Below are positions 53,357 through 64,000 of a stretch of DNA of 64,000 nt, piece by piece. The stretch is taken from NCBI GenBank assembly GCA_001662655.1, contig KV460267.1, one strand, 5' to 3'. The stretch comes from Pseudogymnoascus verrucosus. Taxonomy: Eukaryota. A program made the position numbers and the translations under genes. The notes under the pieces were generated by a model, which saw nothing but the letters and a program-made list of their open reading frames with translations, did no database searches and was not told where the DNA came from. Numbering within the stretch: position 1 is the stretch's first letter; every line of letters begins with the position of its first letter.

Positions 53357-54851
53357 CTAATAGCTTCTAGGTAGATCTAATACTCTTTCCGACACAAAAT
53401 TTAATATCATCTCGCGACTTACTGGCGCAATTCGAGGAATGAAGCACTCCCTCAGATATCTCTCAACATGGTACTCTGCCGCGTATCCCATCCCACCCAA
53501 CGTCAAAACGGCCCGCTCACAAGCCTTAAACGCCGCCTCGGCCGCCAAAAATTTCGCACTGTTGCAAGCTACGCCTACTGCTTGCTGGCTGATGCTCTTG
53601 TCCTCCACACTCTGATCGTACAAGCGAGCTGCGTGATACGTCGCCAGCTTCGCGGCTTCCAGGTTCATATACGCCTTCGACAGCGGATGCGCAATCCCTT
53701 GATTCATGCCTATCGGGCGTCCGAAAACCTCGCGCTCTTTGGCGTACTTCGATGCTCGGTATAGCGCGGCGTATCCGAGACCCAGTGCCTCGCCGGCAAG
53801 TAAACAACGTTCGGCGTTCATACCGTGAAGGACGATCTTAAACCCTTGTCCCTCCTCCCCGATCAAGGAGTTCGCGGGGATTTGGTAGCCGTCGAAGAAT
53901 ACCTCATTTGCGTCGATTGCTCGAGCGCCCATCTTGGAAATCTTCTTCAGGTCCAGCCCCGGCTTCGTCTGGTCGCAGTCGATAAAGAAAAGACTCAGGC
54001 CCTCTGACGGCTTCTTGCATTCCTCCAATGGCGTCGTCCGCGCAAGAAGGACCATCTTCTGGGCAACTTGGGCAGAGGAAATCCAGATCTTTTGCCCGCT
54101 GATAGAATAGGAGTCGCCAGATGCAGATTTGACTGCCTTCGTTTTAAGAGCAAGCGTGTTGAGGCCAGTGTTGGGCTCAGTAACTCCGAAGCAAACGCGC
54201 CAATCTCCAGCAATCAACCTGGGGAGCATTTCTTTCCGTTGCTCTGCGGTGGCGAATTTCGCTACTGGCTGGGTGGCATAGACGTTGGCGTGGATGGATT
54301 GAGCTCCTGCCATGCCGGCGCCGCTCCTGTTTTCCAGTTAGATATCAGGGATATTGAAATAGGGGGTCAAAGTTGGCAATCAATAGCCAGAGACATTTGA
54401 GGTCCTAGCACGGGGTAGTCTTACTCAGAAATCGTTTGGAGCATCATCGTCGCTTCTGAAATCCCCAGTCCTCCACCACCAAGGTCAGTGGGTAACGCGA
54501 TCCCAATCCATCCATCCTTTGCAAGTTCGGCGTGCAGTTCGCGAGGATACGTTCCCGTCTGATCGCGCTCAAGCCAATATTCCTGCAGCCTAGTGTTAGA
54601 CTGGAGTCTGGAGTTTTTGGGATCCGGAGCTACCAAGAGCGACTTGCCTCTGGGAATTTTTTACAAATTTTTGCGATAGCACTACGGACTTCCAGCTGTG
54701 TCTCTGAGAAGCCGCTTGTTTCCATCAAAGTATTTGAGCTCCGCGAAACTGTTGTTGAGAATGGTCTGCTGGAATGATTCGCGCATTTCGGGCCGGGTCT
54801 CGACACACGGCTCGCCCACCCAATGTGACGACTGATTAATTTGGAGGCCAT
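53357..54851 (-). CDS. Mitochondrial acyl-CoA dehydrogenase (candidate methylsuccinyl-CoA dehydrogenase)
   Basis: Presequence-like N-terminus; CFGVTEPNTG, ISGQKIWIS, LIGEEGQGF, REVFGRPIG.NQ, TLGGMGYAAEYHVERYLRE. Introns 54647-54583 (GC-AG) and 54424-54327. Substrate is inferred from context. Confidence 0.9.
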
Positions 54852-55175
54852 TGTCGAAGAAATGAATACAAGACTAGCAATTAATCGTACATGCAATCTA
54901 ATTGCTCAAGAGCTTATATCTTCCCTTGGGAAACCGAGCTTTGAAAGTTAGAAGAGACAGGATCTGCGGCGGTATGAGATAGATAAGTGAAAACAAGGCG
55001 CTGATATATACATAGTTGTCCAGATAGCCATAGAATATTTGTCCATGTGTTACCTGGTAGGCCTGCCCCATAATACCTGTGACCGAACTAAATCATGACC
55101 CCGCAGGTCAATTTTGAATATGAGCGAGGTCTTTGGGCGAGTGGAGAAGCTGGGGTTGTGGTTGTGTTTGGAAAT

Positions 55176-55186
55176 GCCGAATTTCG
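55176..55186. promoter_or_regulatory. Cluster motif GCCGA-ATT-TCG
   Basis: In the divergent dehydrogenase/carrier promoter; same pattern at 61323 and 62689. Confidence 0.45.
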
Positions 55187-55512
55187 TGCCTAAAATCGGT
55201 TAACCTCGCACTGTGCGGAGCACCATCACTCACCGAAGTAGCCGACTGTTGATAGACCAACTCCTCGAACCAACGATCGCGCTATTCCCGCTATTCCCGT
55301 ACCGACATTTGTTTCTGCCCTTTCTCCTGCGCCTTCGCCTTCTGTATCCCTTATCATAGTTTCGGCTCAAGTTGCATAATTCGTGTATTTCAGATTGTCA
55401 TGTGTATATATCTGGTAAATTGTGAAGTAACGTTTAATAAATATATTATTCTCACTTGCACACTGTGGTAGCACGTTAAAGCAGAATACTTGACAGTGAT
55501 ACTACGCAAGCT

Positions 55513-56614
55513 ATGCGTCCCGACTTGAGGCAAGAGTATACCTACCCTCTGTGGTTTGGTGGTTCAGCGTCATGCTTCGCTGTCTGCTTAACGCATCCAT
55601 TAGACCTCAGTAAGTCAGTAATGTGAACTTGTTATTATGCAGTTCTAATTGCAATTCTAGCCAAAGTAAGACTGATCTCACAACAGAGATATCTGTCATT
55701 GACCAACCCTGTGGCTTCGTAGGTGCGCATGCAAACGTCCCAGCTTAGATTTGGTATGTTCAGGACCTTCTTGAATGTGGTCAAGAATGACGGCTTTCTG
55801 GGAATTTATAATGGGGTGTGTGAAATCCACTTTCACCTCAAATACTTCATCAGTAACGTCTGTGTAGTTATCGGCAGGAATTGCGCGGCAATGTAGAATC
55901 CCCATCACAAGGGCAGTACCATTGCTTTGCTAATTTAAAACAGTGCTTTATGGAAGCAGTCGATTCGCGATATATGAGACCGTCAAGAGCGAATATACGC
56001 AAAGAACTCGACAAGAGGCACCAATGTCTGTAATGGTATCTGCCGCAGCTTTGGCCGGTTTCGTTGGTGGTGTTGTTGGTAATCCAGCAGATCTAGCAAA
56101 CGTCCGTATGCAAAGCGACAGTGCTATTCCTCTGCGGGCTCGCAGAAATTACAAGAATGTAATTGACGCCTTTGTGCGGTTTGGGCGGGAGGAAGGGTGG
56201 CGCGGATATACCAGAGGAATCTGGACGAATTCTTCAAGAGCCTCAATTATAAGCGTTTGTCAGCTGGCGTCGTATGATGCATTCAAGAACTTGCTAATTG
56301 AGAGGGAGAAGTTCGAGGATAGCTTGGGGATGCATTTCGCTGCCTCTGTTTTTGCAGGACTTGTAGCAACGACCATTTGCAGCCCAGTTGATGTGATTAA
56401 GAGTCGAATCATGTCCCTTGCTGGAAGTGCATCTATATTTGAAGTTGCAAGAGGTCTCTGGCATACAGAGGGACTCCGATGGATGTTCAAGGGGTGGACC
56501 CCTAGTTTCATTCGAACGGGGCCTCATACCATTGCTACATTTATCTTTCTTGAGCAGCATAAGAAGATATATAGACAACTAAAAACCCCAAAGCAAGAAT
56601 TAGCAATGATTTAA
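55513..56614 (+). CDS. Mitochondrial carrier, Dic1-like dicarboxylate carrier
   Basis: YPLWFGGSASCFAVCLTHPLDL|TK|VRMQ, GNPADLANVRMQSD, QLASYD.FK, ATTICSPVDVIKSRIM, FKGWTPSFIR.GPHT..TF.FLEQ. Four introns including a 5-nt exon. Confidence 0.9.
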
Positions 56615-56738
56615 TAAAAAACTTCAGCAAAAATAACCACTAAACGACCAGGTAGCTAACTTACGGTCACGGTTAGTTCGTAAATGCAATAGCTGTTCAT
56701 CGCTAGTTTTGTCTGGACTACAAGAACATATGCAGAAG

Positions 56739-59203
56739 TTATGGGCCTTGCATGTGAAGTCCAATCTGTAAGCCGTCCGAGTCATTATTGCTGAGCAAAT
56801 ATTGATCCAGAAAGACGCTGAAATCATCTGCTGAACCGCCTTGACTTAAGATATTACGTGGCATGTCAAAGAAGACGGAGTCATGACCCGCTGTTGGATG
56901 TGGGACCTGTAAAATATATTCGTCCGGGGATCCACAACCCGTGTAAGACACCGAGGGCACATGATTTGTTGGTAAAGATCTCGTGGCCGTATTTTCGCCT
57001 GTTGTCGGATCTTGGCTGTGGCCAATATGGTCCATATCGGGCAGATTTTCTACCACGCCGCCACGTAATTTTTTTGCAGTCGACGCATCTAAGTGTTGAA
57101 AAAAAAGTTCCAACACCAAATTGTTGACCTCCCAGTATTTTTGCATCTCCTTTAAGCCAAGTAAACAGATCTGAGCCCTATGCTCCGCTAGTTTCCGAGG
57201 GATCCCCCCTAATCGCTGAAGTTGGATGGTATGGATGCAAAGTGAAGAAAAGAGACTAGTAATTCTGTGACTATGATTAAACTCTGTGATTAGGTGGGTT
57301 GGAAGTAACGTACAAATGCATTTGACCGAATTGGATAAGATTTTGAGAAAGCATATCTTCAACGATTCTCGTCACCCTGCATGCCGCTTGAAGTGCCGGT
57401 CCGCTTTCAGACCTGTTGCGATTGGTTTGGGTCTGCGTATAATCATGGCGGTCAAGTAAAATATGAAGGTAGCTGTTTCCAGGTGAGTTGAAGGTCATAC
57501 GTGTAGCTTTCCTGTGACCTACTTGTACGCGAGGTGCAAAAGGTATGCCCAAATACTCTCACTGCCCCCCTCTGTTTCGCATGACCTCATGCTCTCTGGT
57601 AACATGGCCTTCCACTCTTCAAGTGAATGAATAAGCCCAAATCTTTCGTCGTCGTCAGGATGATGTCCATTAGGCCTAAATTGATTTGTTATGACTCTCC
57701 CAACTTGTAGAATAAGTTAGCAGTGCGAGATAAGCCTGGGCTTGAAGTACATACGCAGTTGGGCCAACCGAGCCATTTGGACAGCGTAGATTCCATGTGC
57801 TGACTTATGAGTTCCAATAAAGTCTGGAATAATGACATCGCTATCTTCTTCAAAATCTGCATAGCTGAGCATTTCGATGTCACAATCCTCATCTCGAATT
57901 CGACTTGGCAAACCTAGCGACGCCGAGGACTGACGATCTCGAACCTGGTAGGTTTAGTTGTGCAATCTTCTCTGGTGTGTGGATTAACAAACATATATTG
58001 ACCACCAGATCCGCTTCCTAAGTTTGGATTCTTTCACGTTCGTGGGAGATGAATGCTGTCTGGAAAGGGTGTCAACAATCGTGGCAATGAACGTCCATGT
58101 GAAGCTTACGATCTGTGAAATCCGCGAGCTTGGGCAAGACTGATGGCTGCTCCAAGCCAGTATCGAGTATTCTTTACATTGAGCGGCCCTGCCCTCCAAA
58201 AACTAATCAAGAACAATACTTGAAGAATAGTAACTTCGTTTGACTCCCAATCAGCATCGTAGAGAATTTTTGTTTGGTTATATAGCTGAGACTTTGCCTC
58301 TGGACGATCTTTGAATCCCATTCGGCGAACCGTGTCTTCGTCACAGTAACTTGCTCCAATGAACAGCATTGCTTTGAGCAAAAGGGGAGACATTTCACCC
58401 TTATTGTATCGATTTGCTATTTCGACACGATCGACAATCGGAAAGCAAGGATGAAACCATTGAAAATATGCTCGGAGGACAGCAACACAGTCTTGAGGGG
58501 ATGGAAGCGTGAAAGCACCTTCTTGAGCCAGGTAATGAGCTTTAGCTGAGCTAGTGGGGAGACTATGCTCTGCAAATAACTCTGATGCTCTAACGTTGAT
58601 AGCGTCTGAAATGGAATAACGAAGTCTTTTCTGGGTTTCAGCTGCAGTCTCGGAAGCACCAGGACTGATGACACAGGTTAGGAGATTCGACTCGCCAAAA
58701 AACAAGACTTGGTTGGTGGCTTGTGATGGAGGTGCGTCGCTGGCCGAAGGGATAGAAGATTGCTGACGAGCTTGCAAAGTTTCAGCTGGAATGGAGCTCT
58801 GGTCATCTGCAATGGAATTTGGTTGTTGGCTCTGAGTATGAGATCTTGGGGAAGGCGGCTCATCGGCGTTCATGTGATCTAGATCTATGGGACCCATATT
58901 CTCTAGGTCATTTTGTGGGTGCAGCGGTTTCCGTGTCCGATAACGCCTGTATCTAGTTTAGCTCGATGCGGCTTTTTGAAGAAAACGATTCGAATTGATT
59001 TTGGTATTGGGCCATGTTGACACCTACCTGCCTCGTCTTGATGGCACAACCTCACACAATGCGTGAGCTGCTGCACAATTATCACACGGGTGCATTTCCA
59101 AAACATTGCAACGAACTCTCCGCGCATTGCACTCCCTACATGCTTGCTTCGCTCGCGTGCGCTTGATTTCAGGCCGCGAATCACTGGGGGAAGGTGATGC
59201 CAT
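56739..59203 (-). CDS. Zn(II)2Cys6 transcription factor with fungal-specific TF domain
   Basis: Exon 1 RAKQACRECNARRVRCNVLEMHPCDNCAAAHALC; YFQWFHPCFPIVDR; WLGAAISLAQARGFHR; RKRIWWSIY|VRDR. Several introns. Confidence 0.92.
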
Positions 59204-59669
59204 CGCTGAAAGGTGAGCAAAGCCTCAGACAGATTGATAAACAGCCAATATATGATAGATCCTGTCGGCGGAGTATTATACGACTCTACCGTGAGCTAAT
59301 AGTACTCGAGTAGCGGATATTAAATTCGTCAAACTTTTGGAGCAGGAGGCCGAAAGAGGAGGAAGGCTGCATGCGATGCGGGGAAGTGCAACGGAAATAA
59401 AAGGTGGGGTTGGCTGATTGTGCTCATTACCGTGGCTTAGCCCCGAGCTTCTCCGCCTTCTCTTCCATGTGAGGAGGACAACATCAGGCACCACACACAG
59501 TCTTCACTAATCATGAGGAGAAAATATCAATTTATTTTGATATGGCTTTCTGTTTTAATATTTACTTCCTAACGTTCATATTTATGTATCAGGAATGCAC
59601 ATTGGCGAGGTCAACGCTAAGTGCTTCGCAATGTGGGTTCGAATACGCAACATCTAATACTTGCCCCTC

Positions 59670-61079
59670 TTACATGTCCATGCCCAGCTCCGCCAAAATC
59701 GTTTTGTTATGTTCGCCAACAGCAGGAACGGCATCCATTCGAGGTCCACTTGCGTCTTGAGACCCCGAAGCAGCAATTCCCGGCGGTACTAGAGCTGGCA
59801 CATAACCCGCAGGCGTTTTGACCTGTGTCCAGCGCCCTCGAGCACGAAGTTGCGGGTGGTTCCATACATCGTGCATGTCGTTGACCTTCGCATTTGCAAT
59901 TCCCGCAGTTTCCAATTGCTCTACCACTTGATTAGCGTTGGAGGTCGAAAATGCGTCGCATATGATTCTCTTAAGCTCATCACGGTTCTTCACCCGGAGA
60001 CTATTGCTTGAGAATCGTGAGTCCGTCGCAAGATTTGAGTCGCGCAGCACCTCCCGACAGAAAATTGCCCATTCTCTTTCATTCTGAATGCCAAGCATAA
60101 CTGTTTTTCCATCTCCACTGTTAAATGGTCCATAAGGATATATGGAAGCGTGTGCGGCGCCGGATGGAACGGGGCTAGGGGCATCGTTGTACGTATAGTA
60201 CATTGGGTAGCCCATCCACTCCACCATGCTTTCAAGCATGGAAATATCTATCTTGCACCCTTGGCCAGTCTTGCCTCGTTGTATGATAGCAGCCAGAATG
60301 TTGCTGTATGCGTACATTCCTGCCGCGATATCTGCGACAGAGTTACCTGCCTTTGCTGGTTCACCTTCTGTCCCCGTGACAGAAAGCATGCCTGCCTCGC
60401 TCTGGACAAGTAAGTCGTAAGCCTTTTTATCTTTGTATGGGCCTTCATTCCCATATCCTGATATGTCGCAAACAATCAGTGCAGGATTATGTTCCCTTAA
60501 CGTCTCATAGGAAAGGCCAAGTCGGGCGCTTGCACCAGGTGCCAGGTTCTGGACGAGGACATCTGCACGTCCGATGAGCTTCTTCAATACTTGAAGGTCT
60601 TGAGGATTTTTCAGATCAAGCGCCAAACTCTCTTTTGACCTATTCGTCCAGACGAAATGTGATGCTAAACCATTGACTCGTGTGTCGTAGTGACGTGCAA
60701 AGTCCCCTACTACTGGGCGCTCGACTTTAATGACACGAGCACCCAGGTCTGCGAGTTGTCGGGTACAGAAAGGGGCTGCAATTGCTTGTTCAATGCTAAC
60801 CACTGTGACTCCACTTAACGGACGAGATGAATCAGTAACAGTGTTCTCAGACTGGGTATGCGCCTTTCGGTTTAATCTTGTTGATGCTATATGCCGCCGT
60901 TGCTCGAAATTGCTGCATGAAATCTTTCTGGATTGTGATTTACGTCCAGAAACACGTACACATCCCGGAAGGGCCGTTGGAAGTCGATGAAGGGTTATTG
61001 GTGAACTGTTTCCGCAACAGGAGGGCCAACAGGCGGGCCGGCTAAGAGCAGACAACACTGTTTTGACTCTGGATTTCAT
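59670..61079 (-). CDS. Family III (CaiB/BaiF) CoA-transferase, candidate itaconate CoA-transferase (Ict)
   Basis: PLSGVTVVSIEQAIAAPFCTRQLADLGARVIKVERP..GDFAR.YD, NRSKESLALDLK, KAYDLLVQSEAG, VPAVGEHN. Long basic presequence; intronless. Confidence 0.92.
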   Translation of the reverse strand: MKSRVKTVLSALSRPACWPSCCGNSSPITLHRLPTALPGCVRVSGRKSQSRKISCSNFEQRRHIASTRLNRKAHTQSENTVTDSSRPLSGVTVVSIEQAIAAPFCTRQLADLGARVIKVERPVVGDFARHYDTRVNGLASHFVWTNRSKESLALDLKNPQDLQVLKKLIGRADVLVQNLAPGASARLGLSYETLREHNPALIVCDISGYGNEGPYKDKKAYDLLVQSEAGMLSVTGTEGEPAKAGNSVADIAAGMYAYSNILAAIIQRGKTGQGCKIDISMLESMVEWMGYPMYYTYNDAPSPVPSGAAHASIYPYGPFNSGDGKTVMLGIQNEREWAIFCREVLRDSNLATDSRFSSNSLRVKNRDELKRIICDAFSTSNANQVVEQLETAGIANAKVNDMHDVWNHPQLRARGRWTQVKTPAGYVPALVPPGIAASGSQDASGPRMDAVPAVGEHNKTILAELGMDM

Positions 61080-61322
61080 GGTCACCAAGTGGGCATTTGC
61101 GAATTGCCTTGTGGGAATCGTTTGGATACTTGATTTATACTCTGAACGAAGTCCGGTGATGGTGCGATTTATCAACTTACATTTGGATTCTGTGAAGGCT
61201 CTTTACTGTGGGTCTTCTTTTAGTACGCTGGTAGATAAATGCAATTGTATGAGGTTCGTGGCCATTGCAACCCCGCACGCATCAACGGAAAGCTTTCCCC
61301 ACAGTACAAACCACTTCAAGTA

Positions 61323-61335
61323 GCCGAAACTCGGC
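61323..61335. promoter_or_regulatory. Cluster motif, palindromic form GCCGA-AAC-TCGGC
   Basis: CCG-N5-CGG arrangement about 245 bp upstream of the CoA-transferase ATG. Confidence 0.5.
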
Positions 61336-61524
61336 AATTAAACCCTTTCAAATTCCTGCATAATCGGCTCCAAGAAACGAGCACTAGAGAATGTAACACT
61401 TCTAATGTGCAATTTAGTAGTGAGCAGCAAGTCACCAAGTCATAGAAAAACCCCCCCTGATTTGGCCCGCACATGAAGCGTATATTGTTACATTCATCTC
61501 AACTATTGCTGATCGCAAAACAAG

Positions 61525-62601
61525 TTACTCTGGTTGTTGATCTTTCCATTTGGCGAGGAGTTTCCCAGTATCGTAGCCGCATAATCCTGCTCTTGCTACA
61601 ATTGCCACACACTTCTTCACGACTGGGACGTCAATCATCTTCCCATCGAGGGTCCAAGCACCCCTTCCCACGCTCTCTGCTTTCTTATTTCCAACAACTA
61701 CTCTCACCGCCCACTCCAATTCCTTTAGATTTGGGCCATAGATCCTCTGAACTACTTCAACTTGTGAAGGATGGATACACTGTTTGCCATTGAATCCCAT
61801 AACCTTACCGCCACGTGACTCCTCCTCGAGTGAAAGTTTGGCGTCGTCTCCCTTATAAGCAGTACAAACAAGATCGATAGCAGAAGGTAGGTTGTATGCC
61901 CTGCTTGCAGTAACAATGGCAGATCGAGCATATAAGAATTCAGAGAGTGAAGGTGTACGGGTGATTGAAAGATCAGCCGCAAAATCCTCTGCGGCAAAGA
62001 TTAGGCCGTCAAGATATGGCGAGGCAGTGCAAATTTCCCGTAGCGACATTAACGCTTGCGCAGACTCAATTAACGCCAGTATTTTCACCGGCGGTCTGGA
62101 TCCAGCAGATGGCTGGCGGTCTTGATCAGGAAGTGTGTGGCGGATAACATCGGAAATGAAATGGAGATCAGCTGCTTGGTTGACCTTTGGCACGACGATC
62201 GTGTCGACGGAAGGTGCTTTAAGCTGAGTAGGTGTTAATGTCATTGATTAGAATTGAAGCCATTTCCCCATTGGTGATGCTTACCACTTCGGTCAGATCC
62301 TGCAATGCGTATCCGCTGTCAACGGCGTTGATACGGACTGCTTGTTCGCGTATGTTGTCCGCCTTCGGTTGCATAAGAAAATCCCTGACAGCAAATCGAG
62401 CTTCATGCTTCGAATGCGGTGCTACTGAATCTTCGAGATCATATGCAACCAAGTCTACGTTGAGTGAACGTGATTTGTTCAGCATCTTTTGGGAAGAACC
62501 CGGGACTGCATTCCTGGTCAACCTCTGGTCTATTATCTGCTCTGGAAACTTCGCATACCATAGAGCAATGCTCTTCTCAAGACGGAGGCTGCCGAGCTCA
62601 T
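61525..62601 (-). CDS. CitE/HpcH-family C-C lyase, candidate (S)-citramalyl-CoA lyase (Ccl)
   Basis: MSSAASVLRRALLY|VPGSS.KML.KS, YDLEDSV, AVRIN, ALIESA, LIFAAEDF, GFNGKQCIHPSQV, GAWTLDGKMIDVPV. Two introns. Confidence 0.92.
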
Positions 62602-62688
62602 TTTTCAGTATATCTTGGACAAGACCTCTCAAACGTTACGTCCATTATTTTTTATTTGAGTGCTACAGTACGACTGATGTTGTTGTCA

Positions 62689-62699
62689 GCCGAGTGTCG
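62689..62699. promoter_or_regulatory. Cluster motif GCCGA-GTG-TCG
   Basis: In the 351-bp divergent lyase/hydratase promoter. Confidence 0.45.
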
Positions 62700-62952
62700 T
62701 CTATTGATTTCGGCCCGTATCCATCAATTAGCCGACTTCGAACCTCCGGTTATCCGATAAGGCAACCCATGCTCTCGAAAGCACAATTTTACAGGTAGGA
62801 TAGATCCTGAGTGAAATAGGGCGGGCCTGCTAAATATTCTTGAAATTTGGTTTTCGTTACAGCATAGTATCATCTATATTACTAAAGTAAAGCTCTACGT
62901 CTGTCATTCATATCCATAGAGTTGAACACCAACCGTAAACCTACGTCTGAGA

Positions 62953-64000
62953 ATGGTCCGGATCTCTATGCGCCTATGCTCGAAGGCGGCTTCTTCATCT
63001 GCCGCTGCGGCAGCCGAATTCTTGCAGCGTACGTCCAAAGCTGTCTCTTTCGTACAGGAGCAGTTTCTTGATCCAAACCAGCTCCAGAAGCTGTCGCTCA
63101 CTCTGGGACGGCCGACACTCTACAAGTCCCTGAGAATTGACTCAAAACCTCCACCTCAAGGTACACCACTGCCTCCAGGATATCATCTAGCCTATTTCAC
63201 GCCCTCAGGATGTGAGCAAGAACTTGGTCTTGATGGTACCGATCGTACGGTAAATCCACCGCATCCTTTTACCAGAAGGATGTGGGCTGGGGGTTCACTG
63301 CACTGGGTTCGCGATAACTTGTTGAAAGTTGGCCAGACGGTAAGAGAGACGACGGAAGTTATGTCGGCAATACCAAAAACAACGAGGGAAGGAGAAGAAA
63401 TGATTGTGGTTGGGGTCAAGAAAACGTTTGAGAACGATGCGGGAATAGCACTCGTTGACACGAGGTAATTTTTACTCTCACATTGCGAAAAGATCTGATA
63501 CATTGCTCTAGAAATTGGCTTTTCCGAAAAGAGATTACAAATCCCCAGCCGCCCTCTGAAAAACAGAAAAGCATTCAATTGCCAAAAGGTAAAATATATA
63601 AAATTGATACCAAGGGAGACACTGTGCCATCAGCTGACTAAATTAACTTGCCAGGAACCATTACCCGCGACCACTGCCAATCACCAGTTTCGCTATTTCG
63701 ATTTTCAGCTCTCACTTTCAATGCGCATAAGATCCATTATTCACGAGAGTGGTGCCGTGATGTCGAGGGGCATCGAGATATAGTGGTCCATGGGCCGCTC
63801 AATCTTATCAACATGCTCGACCTTTGGCGGGACAATCAGGAAGCCGGCGACCATGTGATTCCCCAGAGCATTGATTATCGAGCAACTTCACCACTGTATG
63901 CTGGAGACCGTTACCGGGCTGTGATGGAGAAGGGGGAGAACGGCCACGCTGATAATCTGTCTATCTATACACCGTCAGGGGCAGTTGCCATGCGAGGCAA
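62953..64000 (+). CDS. Double-hotdog MaoC/HTD2-type hydratase, candidate itaconyl-CoA/mesaconyl-C4-CoA hydratase (Ich); runs past the window end
   Basis: LPPGYHLAYF, LGLDGTD, RRMWAGGSL, LFRFSALTFNAHKIHY...EGHRDIVVHGPL, YRATSPLYAG. Introns about 63465-63511 and 63589-63654. Confidence 0.9.

What the first reader, a model, noticed from the sequence alone, without database searches (positions are those of the whole stretch)
53357..64000. Complete clustered fungal itaconate/methylsuccinate catabolic pathway with its own carrier and regulator
Seen: six contiguous genes in about 10.6 kb with short intergenic gaps, including two divergent pairs: acyl-CoA dehydrogenase, Dic1-like carrier, Zn2Cys6 TF, family III CoA-transferase, CitE-like lyase and MaoC/HTD2-like hydratase. 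Established: itaconate is degraded by Ict, then Ich (itaconyl-CoA to mesaconyl-C4-CoA to (S)-citramalyl-CoA), then Ccl (acetyl-CoA + pyruvate). Pseudomonas aeruginosa uses exactly these three families in an operon that also has an acyl-CoA dehydrogenase. Aspergillus terreus and A. niger have ictA/ichA/cclA, which as I recall are dispersed rather than clustered. Inference: this is an operon-like eukaryotic module that imports C5-dicarboxylates into mitochondria and degrades them under a dedicated TF. It could serve as a carbon source or to detoxify itaconate, an isocitrate lyase inhibitor made by competing fungi and by animal macrophages.
Basis: partly seen in the sequence, partly recalled or inferred. 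Interest (0 to 1): 0.9.

Follow-up and report, generated by a model that had tools for sequence, protein, structure and literature searches.

The report
Clustered fungal itaconate breakdown genes
A Pseudogymnoascus-type fungus keeps the three known genes for breaking down itaconate side by side with a regulator, a mitochondrial carrier and an extra dehydrogenase, which points to candidates for the still unknown transporter and regulator of this pathway in fungi.

Summary
Six genes lie at 53357-64000: an acyl-CoA dehydrogenase (ACAD), a mitochondrial carrier, a Zn2Cys6 factor, a family III CoA-transferase, a CitE/CLYBL-like lyase and a double hot-dog hydratase, with two divergent pairs. Spliced transcript contigs from relatives confirm introns in four genes and cover a fifth.

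The three core genes are orthologues of the characterised Aspergillus IctA, IchA and CclA. IctA is 74% identical to the deposited A. terreus itaconyl-CoA transferase. Its closest bacterial relatives (64-69%) sit in Ich-ACAD-Ict-Ccl operons.

The ACAD is not an orthologue of the operon's methylsuccinyl-CoA dehydrogenase. It is sister to a different, uncharacterised bacterial clade inside the same superclade. In five other fungal species the ACAD and IchA lie on different contigs.

The six-gene cluster recurs in several Pseudogymnoascus strains. IctA and IchA are also adjacent in a Xylaria. The genes are dispersed in Aspergillus, as published.

Best reading: a lineage-restricted mitochondrial itaconate/C5-dicarboxylate catabolic cluster. 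The pathway is known. The clustering with a regulator, a carrier and an ACAD was not found in print. The roles of carrier, regulator and ACAD are inferred only.

The parts
53357..54851 (-). Acyl-CoA dehydrogenase, 450 aa. Exons 54851-54634, 54589-54425 and 54326-53357. The N-terminus is basic with no acidic residue in the first 30.
   Evidence: Pfam; gene model; intron 54327-54424 seen as a spliced joint in run X19; 95% identical to Pseudogymnoascus sp. 03VT05 VE02_09278 and 76-86% to many Pezizomycotina; tree. The first intron (54590-54633) has no transcript support and leaves a 7-residue insert relative to homologues.
55513..56614 (+). Mitochondrial carrier, 297 aa. Exons 55513-55617, 55723-55815, 55868-55892 and 55944-56614. 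It belongs to the oxoglutarate/dicarboxylate-carrier-like group.
   Evidence: Pfam Mito_carr 2e-38; the only GT-AG model that gives more than 280 aa; the Atlas's nearest named clusters are '2-oxoglutarate/malate carrier' at scores 0.93-0.95. The introns are not confirmed by transcripts.
56739..59203 (-). Zn2Cys6 transcription factor, 711 aa, seven exons: 59203-59028, 58946-58110, 58059-57993, 57944-57755, 57703-57523, 57472-57314 and 57264-56739.
   Evidence: Zn2Cys6 motif; Fungal_trans 3.9e-19; four introns seen as spliced joints and two as loose ends of transcript contigs in runs X18 and X20.
59670..61079 (-). IctA, a family III CoA-transferase in a single exon, with an N-terminal extension of about 90 residues.
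   Evidence: CoA_transf_3 2.6e-109; 282/383 (74%) identical to A. terreus 'itaconyl-CoA transferase' AND01113.1, which shares a 90% cluster with ATEG_06299; tree; a transcript contig covers 59879-60110.
61525..62601 (-). CclA, a CitE/CLYBL-like citramalyl-CoA lyase, 320 aa. Exons 62601-62559, 62505-62285 and 62223-61525.
   Evidence: HpcH_HpaI; gene model; both introns seen as joints in two or three runs; the best solved relative is human CLYBL at 3.9e-46, ahead of the chain I take to be P. aeruginosa Ccl (8khl) at 6.9e-25; by eye 36 of 54 N-terminal residues match A. niger CclA in the paper's supplement.
62953..64000 (+). IchA, a double hot-dog itaconyl-CoA hydratase, 316 aa. Exons 62953-63464, 63512-63588 and 63655 to beyond 64000; the last five codons are off the window.
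   Evidence: P0001; gene model; both introns seen as joints in X19 and X20; the only solved-structure hits are 8khg and 8huc; 53% identical to A. nomiae P0110, which matches A. niger IchA in 88 of 101 residues by eye.
54852..55512 (.). Bidirectional promoter region between the ACAD and the carrier.
   Evidence: Gene models. It holds one of four copies of GCCGAAA that lie in the four promoter regions of the cluster; the window has 10 copies in all. This is a weak, post hoc signal.
62602..62952 (.). Bidirectional promoter region between CclA and IchA.
   Evidence: Gene models; a GCCGAAA copy at 62708.

Best explanation
This is a eukaryotic catabolic gene cluster for itaconate and probably related branched C5-dicarboxylates. 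IctA would transfer CoA, presumably from succinyl-CoA, to itaconate. IchA would hydrate and isomerise itaconyl-CoA through mesaconyl-C4-CoA to (S)-citramalyl-CoA. CclA would cleave that to acetyl-CoA and pyruvate, all inside mitochondria. Shown here: the genes, their splicing, their orthology to the characterised Aspergillus genes, and the clustering. Inferred: the neighbouring oxoglutarate/dicarboxylate-type carrier brings the acid into the matrix; the Zn2Cys6 factor switches the genes on; the ACAD feeds a saturated acid such as methylsuccinate into the same route by making the enoyl-CoA. The cluster was put together in fungi from genes of different ancestry. It is not a transferred bacterial operon.
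For: Orthology. IctA is 74% identical (282/383) to the deposited A. terreus itaconyl-CoA transferase, which shares a 90% cluster with ATEG_06299. IchA is 53% identical to the A. nomiae orthologue of A. niger IchA, and its only two solved-structure hits are 8khg, deposited as itaconyl-CoA hydratase, and 8huc. CclA's best solved relative is CLYBL, the mammalian citramalyl-CoA lyase (that function is recalled), at 3.9e-46. A. niger ictA and ichA knock-outs stop itaconate consumption (abstract and passages).

Bacterial relatives. The 80 metagenome loci kept by the scan all hold an Ict 64-69% identical to the fungal one. Within 6 kb, 63 have an Ich homologue, 49 a Ccl homologue, 46 an ACAD of at least 40% identity, and 25 all three. 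Among the 36 loci with at least 3 kb on both sides the counts are 35, 26 and 21. Fungal IctA falls inside the operon-type Ict superclade (SH-aLRT 100). The ACAD belongs to the superclade (95) that also holds the ACADs of those operons, a kind characterised as methylsuccinyl-C4-CoA dehydrogenase.

Expression and linkage. Spliced transcript contigs cover the ACAD, the factor, IctA, CclA and IchA. The cluster recurs in Pseudogymnoascus strains by locus tags (V492_07773/07776, V494_07775/07778, VE00_08312/08314, VE04_05983/05986) and in one contig of run X5 that covers the whole stretch laid. IctA and IchA carry consecutive accession numbers on one contig in Xylaria cf. heliscus.

Localisation. 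The first 30 residues of all four enzymes are basic (4-6 K/R) with 0-1 acidic residue. A. niger IctA, IchA and CclA are predicted to be mitochondrial.
Against: No enzyme activity, induction or localisation was measured here. The ACAD is not orthologous to the operon dehydrogenase. It is sister (97) to bacterial 'group A' ACADs (52-59% identical), whose neighbours are other family III CoA-transferases, CitE-like lyases (13 of 80 loci) and crotonases (12 of 80), but never a hot-dog Ich (0 of 80). The substrate of that clade is unknown.

In 5 of 5 other fungal species named in both lists (Coleophoma, Cucurbitaria, Pyrenochaeta, Paecilomyces lecythidis, Rasamsonia), the ACAD and IchA lie on contigs of different length. 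A sixth species, P. variotii, was dropped because the two rows name different strains. In A. niger no ACAD appears among the genes induced under itaconate production, and cclA is not induced there.

In Aspergillus section Flavi the IctA and IchA accession numbers are far apart. No MmgE/PrpD gene was found among the window ORFs scanned. The shared promoter word is not significant after allowing for the search. The carrier's introns and expression are unconfirmed.
Confidence: 0.72

Rival explanations
1. Only the IctA-CclA-IchA trio, perhaps with the factor, is the itaconate module. The ACAD and the carrier are a separate, widely conserved housekeeping pair that merely lies next to it in Pseudogymnoascus.
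For: The ACAD is 76-86% identical across the other genera among the 120 listed hits, and several genera in that list do not appear in the truncated IctA and IchA lists. It lies on a different contig from IchA in 5 of 5 other species. It is not in the operon-dehydrogenase clade. No ACAD is among the itaconate-induced A. niger genes.
Against: The ACAD's superclade, including the operon dehydrogenases and 'group A', is tied in bacteria to family III CoA-transferases and CitE-like lyases. That is the same chemistry as this cluster. A '2-oxoglutarate/malate carrier' gene (An11g02540) is induced in a high-itaconate A. niger strain, although its orthology to this carrier is untested. The six genes stay together in several Pseudogymnoascus strains.
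Confidence: 0.3
2. The cluster is real, but its natural substrate is another branched C5-dicarboxylate (mesaconate, citramalate or methylsuccinate) or an endogenous CoA ester. Itaconate would be only a side substrate.
For: Bacterial homologous clusters act on methylsuccinate, mesaconate and citramalate as well. The presence of an ACAD suggests a saturated substrate. No itaconate-synthesis gene family (MmgE/PrpD-type cis-aconitate decarboxylase) turned up among the window ORFs scanned.
Against: The Aspergillus orthologues were characterised on itaconate, and their deletion stops itaconate consumption.
Confidence: 0.2
3. The neighbours are unrelated enzymes: the mitochondrial fatty-acid-synthesis dehydratase Htd2, a SUGCT-like glutarate CoA-transferase and a malyl-CoA-type lyase. 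Their proximity would be accidental.
For: JGI names homologues of the hydratase 'HTD2-like'. The best solved relative of the transferase is human SUGCT (2e-67).
Against: The transferase is far closer to characterised IctA (74%) and to operon Ict (64-69%) than the SUGCT score suggests. A. niger carries a separate HTD2 gene beside IchA, and the window's protein matches the IchA lineage. Adjacency recurs in Xylaria.
Confidence: 0.03

Closest known systems
Aspergillus terreus / A. niger itaconate degradation genes ictA, ichA and cclA (Chen et al. 2016, known to me only through citations; Hossain et al. 2019, PMC6320622)
   Same: The same three enzymes by orthology (IctA 74%; IchA and CclA as described above), the same predicted mitochondrial location, and the same expected products, acetyl-CoA and pyruvate.
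   Different: In A. niger the genes are stated not to be clustered, and the A. terreus locus tags are far apart. Here they are adjacent and joined by a Zn2Cys6 factor, a carrier and an ACAD. Hossain et al. state that the transporters of the Aspergillus pathway are unknown, and I saw no regulator named in the passages read.
Pseudomonadal itaconate/methylsuccinate cluster (P. aeruginosa PA0878-PA0883; C. necator operon 1; Gonner et al. 2025, PMC12290011)
   Same: The same four enzyme families: family III Ict, double hot-dog Ich, CitE-like Ccl and an ACAD of the same superclade. Fungal IctA is 64-69% identical to Ict of such operons.
   Different: These are separate spliced eukaryotic genes on both strands, not an operon. 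The ACAD belongs to a sister clade. There is no MmgE/PrpD isomerase. The lyase is nearer to CLYBL than to the chain I take to be P. aeruginosa Ccl. A mitochondrial carrier and a Zn2Cys6 factor stand in place of a TRAP/TctC uptake system and a LysR regulator.
Mammalian mitochondrial itaconate disposal (CLYBL, with SUGCT-type CoA-transferase; this pathway is recalled, not taken from a call)
   Same: A CLYBL-like lyase and a family III CoA-transferase acting in mitochondria.
   Different: The fungal hydratase is a hot-dog enzyme of the bacterial Ich type. The transferase is of the bacterial Ict type rather than SUGCT. The genes are clustered.
Fungal catabolic gene clusters with their own Zn2Cys6 factor and transporter (for example quinate and proline utilisation clusters; recalled)
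   Same: Pathway enzymes, a transporter and a Zn2Cys6 factor in one locus with divergent promoters.
   Different: The transporter here is a mitochondrial inner-membrane carrier, not a plasma-membrane permease. Regulation is untested.

Membership tests
Fungal itaconate degradation pathway (IctA/IchA/CclA) | CoA-transferase orthologous to characterised IctA | tested here: met
   282/383 identical to AND01113.1, which shares a 90% cluster with ATEG_06299. Fungal clade supported at 99 in the tree, including the A. terreus and A. niger rows.
Fungal itaconate degradation pathway (IctA/IchA/CclA) | Hydratase orthologous to IchA and not to the HTD2 paralogue | tested here: met
   53% identical to A. 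nomiae P0110, which matches A. niger IchA in 88 of 101 residues by eye. Only 8khg and 8huc hit among solved structures. The HTD2 paralogue itself could not be fetched for a tree.
Fungal itaconate degradation pathway (IctA/IchA/CclA) | Lyase orthologous to CclA / CLYBL | tested here: met
   CLYBL is the best solved relative at 3.9e-46. 36 of 54 N-terminal residues match A. niger CclA by eye, and the two proteins end alike. No tree was made.
Fungal itaconate degradation pathway (IctA/IchA/CclA) | Enzyme activities and induction by itaconate | not testable with these tools
   Transcript contigs show only that the genes are expressed and spliced.
Pseudomonadal itaconate/methylsuccinate cluster | ACAD orthologous to (RS)-methylsuccinyl-C4-CoA dehydrogenase | tested here: not met
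   The fungal clade is sister to 'group A' (97). The operon ACADs form a separate clade with rep_P0254 (100; the operon rows alone at 93). Identity is 43-46% to operon ACADs against 52-59% to group A.
Pseudomonadal itaconate/methylsuccinate cluster | MmgE/PrpD methylsuccinate isomerase in the cluster | tested here: not met
   No MmgE_PrpD hit among the 11 cluster ORFs or among 37 other window ORFs sent to Pfam out of 119 of at least 110 aa. DNA beyond 64000 was not seen.
Pseudomonadal itaconate/methylsuccinate cluster | One polycistronic operon | tested here: not met
   Both strands are used, and 14 introns in five genes were modelled, 11 of them backed by transcript contigs.
Fungal catabolic gene cluster with own regulator and transporter | Linkage conserved beyond one strain | tested here: inconclusive
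   Kept in several Pseudogymnoascus strains. The IctA-IchA pair is also adjacent in Xylaria cf. heliscus. The genes are dispersed in Aspergillus. The ACAD is unlinked from IchA in 5 of 5 other species. No fungal genome collection was available for a proper synteny scan.
Fungal catabolic gene cluster with own regulator and transporter | Co-regulation by the resident factor | not testable with these tools
   Only a weak shared word (GCCGAAA) in the four promoters.
Mitochondrial dicarboxylate carrier Dic1 | Orthology to Dic1 rather than to oxoglutarate or other carriers | tested here: inconclusive
   The Atlas's nearest named clusters are '2-oxoglutarate/malate carrier' (0.93-0.95). No Dic1 sequence was in hand for a tree.

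The most novel reading that the evidence does not exclude
A fungus has convergently rebuilt the bacterial itaconate/methylsuccinate operon as a eukaryotic gene cluster from parts of different ancestry. These are a proteobacterial-type Ict (possibly acquired by gene transfer), a CLYBL-type lyase, a hot-dog Ich, and an ACAD from the sister clade of the bacterial methylsuccinyl-CoA dehydrogenase. It added what would be the first dedicated mitochondrial itaconate/C5-dicarboxylate importer and the first pathway-specific itaconate-responsive transcription factor known in eukaryotes.
Probability: 0.35. Interest if true: 0.75.

Novelty: new variant of a known kind. Interest (0 to 1): 0.6.

Why it matters
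Itaconate is an industrial product of fungi, an inhibitor of isocitrate lyase, and an antimicrobial made by animal macrophages. Fungal breakdown of itaconate lowers production yields. Hossain et al. write that the transporters that bring itaconate to the mitochondrial enzymes are unknown. This cluster puts a carrier and a Zn2Cys6 factor next to the three known genes, so it names two concrete candidates that can be tested by deletion. It also names a conserved fungal ACAD of unknown substrate whose bacterial relatives all sit with CoA-transferases and CitE-like lyases. It is also a clean example of a eukaryotic cluster that mirrors a bacterial operon without being a copy of it.

Tried and rejected
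1. No whole genome is held for the window, so paralogues such as a separate Htd2 or SUGCT, and the DNA beyond 64000, could not be examined.

2. The metagenome scan with IctA returned only contigs that I take to be bacterial (54-73% G+C, matches without introns). It gave no fungal synteny.

3. Comparing contig lengths between the top-120 lists of IchA, IctA and ACAD gave a single shared contig between the IchA and IctA lists (Xylaria). The lists are truncated and overlap little in species.

4. Shared promoter words: one 7-mer (GCCGAAA) occurs in all four promoter regions, with about 0.09 expected by my rough estimate. A 10-mer is shared by two promoters, with about 0.6 expected. Neither is convincing.

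5. No RNA holder was listed by the run search. Three runs guessed to be RNA were laid. The carrier gene and most of IctA had no cover in them, which says nothing about expression. An odd joint at 61662-61769 (CC..AA, one contig) was ignored.

6. NCBIfam has no equivalog for the fungal proteins or for the bacterial Ict, Ich and operon ACADs. All scores are far below the cut-offs.

7. Earlier findings of this scan hold no fungal look-alike.

8. Five literature searches found no description of a fungal itaconate catabolic cluster. The library holds open-access papers only. Chen et al. 2016 and the two PaIch structure papers were not readable.

9. Catalytic residues of IchA were not assessed, because the structure papers were not available.


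Full report
WHAT IS THERE

Stop-to-stop reading frames and Pfam show six genes between 53357 and 64000:
- an acyl-CoA dehydrogenase (ACAD, minus strand);
- a mitochondrial carrier (plus strand);
- a protein with a fungal transcription-factor domain (minus strand);
- a family III CoA-transferase (minus strand, 2.6e-109);
- an HpcH/CitE-type lyase (minus strand);
- a gene on the plus strand without a Pfam hit, which runs off the window.

The protein collection holds the window's own version of that last gene (P0001, 316 aa). Only its last five residues lie beyond 64000.

I built exon models with homologues as guides. For the transcription factor I used transcript contigs. The factor's first exon carries a full Zn2Cys6 motif.

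Start codons of the two divergent pairs are 661 bp apart (ACAD|carrier) and 351 bp apart (CclA|IchA). The other gaps are 124, 466 and 445 bp.

Upstream of 53357 the window holds unrelated genes. They include a TRP-like channel, a short-chain dehydrogenase, Med1 and an IFRD-family protein (37 of the 119 ORFs of at least 110 aa listed were sent to Pfam).

The nearest named relatives are Pseudogymnoascus strains: ACAD 95%, IctA 88%.

TRANSCRIPTS

The run search listed no RNA holder. Three runs guessed to be RNA gave contigs that skip canonical GT-AG introns exactly where I had modelled them:
- one intron in the ACAD;
- four in the factor, plus two more seen as loose ends;
- both introns in CclA;
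- both introns in IchA.

One contig lies on IctA. So five of the six genes are transcribed and spliced in close relatives. Contigs cannot rank expression. One contig of run X5 covers the whole stretch laid, at about 99% identity (105 other letters in 11,000).

THE CORE THREE GENES

IctA:
- The transferase is 74% identical (282 of 383) to the protein deposited as 'itaconyl-CoA transferase [Aspergillus terreus]'.
- That protein shares a 90% cluster with ATEG_06299.

IchA:
- The hydratase is 53% identical over 311 residues to A. nomiae P0110.
- By eye, P0110 matches the A. niger IchA sequence in supplement 6 of Hossain et al. 2019 in 88 of 101 residues.
- Its only hits among solved structures are 8khg, deposited as itaconyl-CoA hydratase, and 8huc (6e-23 and 1.1e-22). 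I take both to be the P. aeruginosa enzyme; the organism is recalled, supported by the paper titles seen.

CclA:
- By eye, the lyase matches A. niger CclA in 36 of 54 N-terminal residues, and the two proteins end alike.
- Through the fused gene model P0596 of a sister strain, its best solved relative is human CLYBL (3.9e-46). The chain I take to be P. aeruginosa Ccl (8khl) scores 6.9e-25 and 3qll, which I recall as Yersinia RipC, 7.4e-24.

From Hossain et al. (abstract, passages and supplements read):
- Deleting ictA or ichA stops itaconate consumption.
- All three proteins are predicted to be mitochondrial.
- A. niger has separate paralogues, a second CoA-transferase and an 'HTD2 protein'.
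- The A. terreus locus tags (06299, 03709, 03186) are far apart.

Here the first 30 residues of each of the four enzymes hold 4-6 basic and 0-1 acidic residues. That fits a mitochondrial presequence, but it is only a rule of thumb.

BACTERIAL RELATIVES OF IctA

All 80 are 64-69% identical over the full length without introns, on DNA of 54-73% G+C.

Fungal-type neighbours within 6 kb of that Ict:

| Loci | Ich homologue | Ccl homologue | ACAD (≥40% identity) | All three |
|---|---|---|---|---|
| All 80 | 63 | 49 | 46 | 25 |
| The 36 with ≥3 kb on both sides | 35 | 26 | 21 | not counted |

The usual order is Ich-ACAD-Ict-(gap)-Ccl. This is the arrangement described for P. aeruginosa and C. necator.

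I built a tree of 61 rows. It used 24 of the 80 operon-type Ict rows, 16 of 54 distant transferases, one intermediate row, the C. necator Ict, and 19 rows that I labelled fungal (the window's protein and 18 others). The fungal proteins form one clade (99) inside a superclade of operon-type Ict (100), far from the other transferases. One row that I had labelled fungal (P0446) fell among the bacterial rows.

So IctA is an Ict in the narrow sense. It is much closer to bacterial Ict than its score against human SUGCT (2e-67) would suggest.

THE ACAD

- It is 76-86% identical across Pezizomycotina outside its own genus, among the 120 hits listed.
- Among solved structures it resembles generic short-chain ACADs (1e-45). 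The chain 6es9, which I recall as the ethylmalonyl-pathway methylsuccinyl-CoA dehydrogenase, scores only 1.4e-28.
- A search of 1.84 billion representative proteins, followed by a scan of prokaryote genomes with an alignment, gave 80 loci with ACADs 52-59% identical. I call these 'group A'.

Within 4 kb of the group A ACADs:

| Neighbour | Loci out of 80 |
|---|---|
| Family III CoA-transferase of one type | 29 |
| Family III CoA-transferase of a second type | 14 |
| CitE-like lyase | 13 |
| Crotonase | 12 |
| TctC | 21 |
| IclR | 10 |
| Hot-dog Ich | 0 |

The two transferase labels were counted separately.

In one genome titled Cupriavidus necator, the best match to the fungal ACAD (59%) lies in a TctC-ACAD-CoA-transferase-IclR unit. 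The next two matches (47% and 48%) lie beside Ich homologues. One sits in a CoA-transferase/lyase/Ich/ACAD row. The other sits with an MmgE/PrpD gene. All 21 further matches are 35% or less.

I built a tree of 77 rows. It used 25 of 79 group A rows, 22 of 39 operon ACADs plus two from C. necator, 5 of 7 distant ACADs as outgroup, 13 fungal rows and 10 representatives, by the quick method. The results:
- the fungal clade is supported at 100;
- it is sister to group A (97);
- the operon ACADs and one representative (rep_P0254) form a separate clade (100);
- all three lie within one superclade (95).

The operon enzyme was shown to be an (RS)-methylsuccinyl-C4-CoA dehydrogenase (section read). Two paralogues act so in C. 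necator (passages read).

The fungal ACAD is therefore a cousin of that enzyme, not its orthologue. Its own clade is uncharacterised, though it also keeps company with CoA-transferases and lyases.

HOW FAR THE CLUSTER REACHES

- Within Pseudogymnoascus, locus tags place the ACAD, IctA, CclA and IchA within three or four gene numbers of each other in four strains.
- In Xylaria cf. heliscus, IctA and IchA have consecutive accession numbers on one 992,812-bp contig.
- In A. pseudonomiae and A. bombycis their accession numbers are far apart.
- For the ACAD against IchA, six species occur in both top-120 lists. One (P. variotii) names different strains and was dropped. In the other five the two genes lie on contigs of different length. 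In Paecilomyces lecythidis the locus tags are 2,845 apart, and in Coleophoma the accession numbers are far apart.

Contig length is a proxy, and the lists are truncated, so this is a partial test. A true synteny scan of fungal genomes could not be run.

HINTS FROM A. NIGER EXPRESSION DATA

From supplement 4 of Hossain et al.:
- The gene next to ictA (An07g00750, 'hypothetical protein') rises with itaconate production, from about 0.5 to 28.
- A '2-oxoglutarate/malate carrier' (An11g02540) rises in one high producer.
- No ACAD is in the induced list.

The Atlas places the window's carrier nearest to clusters named '2-oxoglutarate/malate carrier' (0.93-0.95). Orthology of these A. niger genes to the window's factor and carrier could not be tested.

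READING

The core is an orthologous copy of the known fungal itaconate pathway. What is new is its arrangement as a cluster with a Zn2Cys6 factor, an inner-membrane carrier and a cousin of the methylsuccinyl-CoA dehydrogenase.

The levels of identity to the bacterial operon genes are very uneven:
- Ict 64-69%;
- ACAD 43-46%;
- Ich 27-51%;
- Ccl 28-38%, with CLYBL nearer than the bacterial lyases.

That unevenness argues against transfer of a whole operon and for assembly within fungi.

The parts played by the carrier, the factor and the ACAD are inferred from position and family alone. The ACAD's loose linkage in other fungi is real evidence against a fixed role in this pathway.

NOVELTY

Five full-text searches found no description of such a fungal cluster. 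The one explicit statement found says the genes are unclustered in A. niger. The library is limited to open-access papers. Chen et al. 2016 was not readable and is known to me only through citations.

Noticed in passing
window 59670-61079; loci L087-L166: Fungal IctA is 64-69% identical to Ict of bacterial itaconate operons and nests within that bacterial superclade. Human SUGCT is a much more distant relative. This may reflect an old gene transfer into fungi, or the loss of this type in animals.
   Followed up: partly
L017, L040, L046, L067 (about 8.5-14 kb in each locus): Bacterial units of CoA-transferase, group A ACAD, CitE-like lyase and crotonase. This is an uncharacterised route that parallels the methylsuccinate pathway but uses a crotonase in place of the hot-dog hydratase.
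   Followed up: partly
L043 8893-18297: One betaproteobacterial contig carries a group A ACAD, further ACADs, a crotonase and, 5 kb on, Ich, an Ict (52% identical to the fungal one; the frame looks broken) and Ccl. Both ACAD types lie side by side.
   Followed up: no
P0162: An ACAD 81% identical to the window's carries the label of a basidiomycete (Mycena crocata) and sits inside the ascomycete clade in the tree. This could be contamination or gene transfer.
   Followed up: no
P0598 and P0596: Public gene models of sister strains fuse neighbours. One is a 798-aa model joining the ACAD to a downstream cysteine/histidine-rich protein. The other is a 700-aa model joining CclA to IctA. These are annotation errors that hide the cluster in databases.
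   Followed up: partly
window 55360, 59349, 61323, 62708: GCCGAAA occurs once in each of the four promoter regions of the cluster (4 of the window's 10 copies). A 10-base word is shared by the ACAD|carrier and ictA promoters. This may be a binding site, but it is not significant on this evidence.
   Followed up: partly
window 61662-61769: One transcript-like contig of run X20 skips 106 bases inside the last CclA exon with non-canonical ends (CC..AA). This is probably an assembly artefact or comes from another organism.
   Followed up: no
window 54590-54654: The first ACAD intron as modelled leaves a 7-residue insert relative to homologues, and no transcript covers it. The true donor site may differ.
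   Followed up: no
P0110 and P0586: UniRef names the A. nomiae and A. bombycis IchA orthologues 'C6 transcription factor'. The name may have been carried over from a fused gene model. That would hint that IchA lies next to a Zn2Cys6 gene in some Aspergillus.
   Followed up: no
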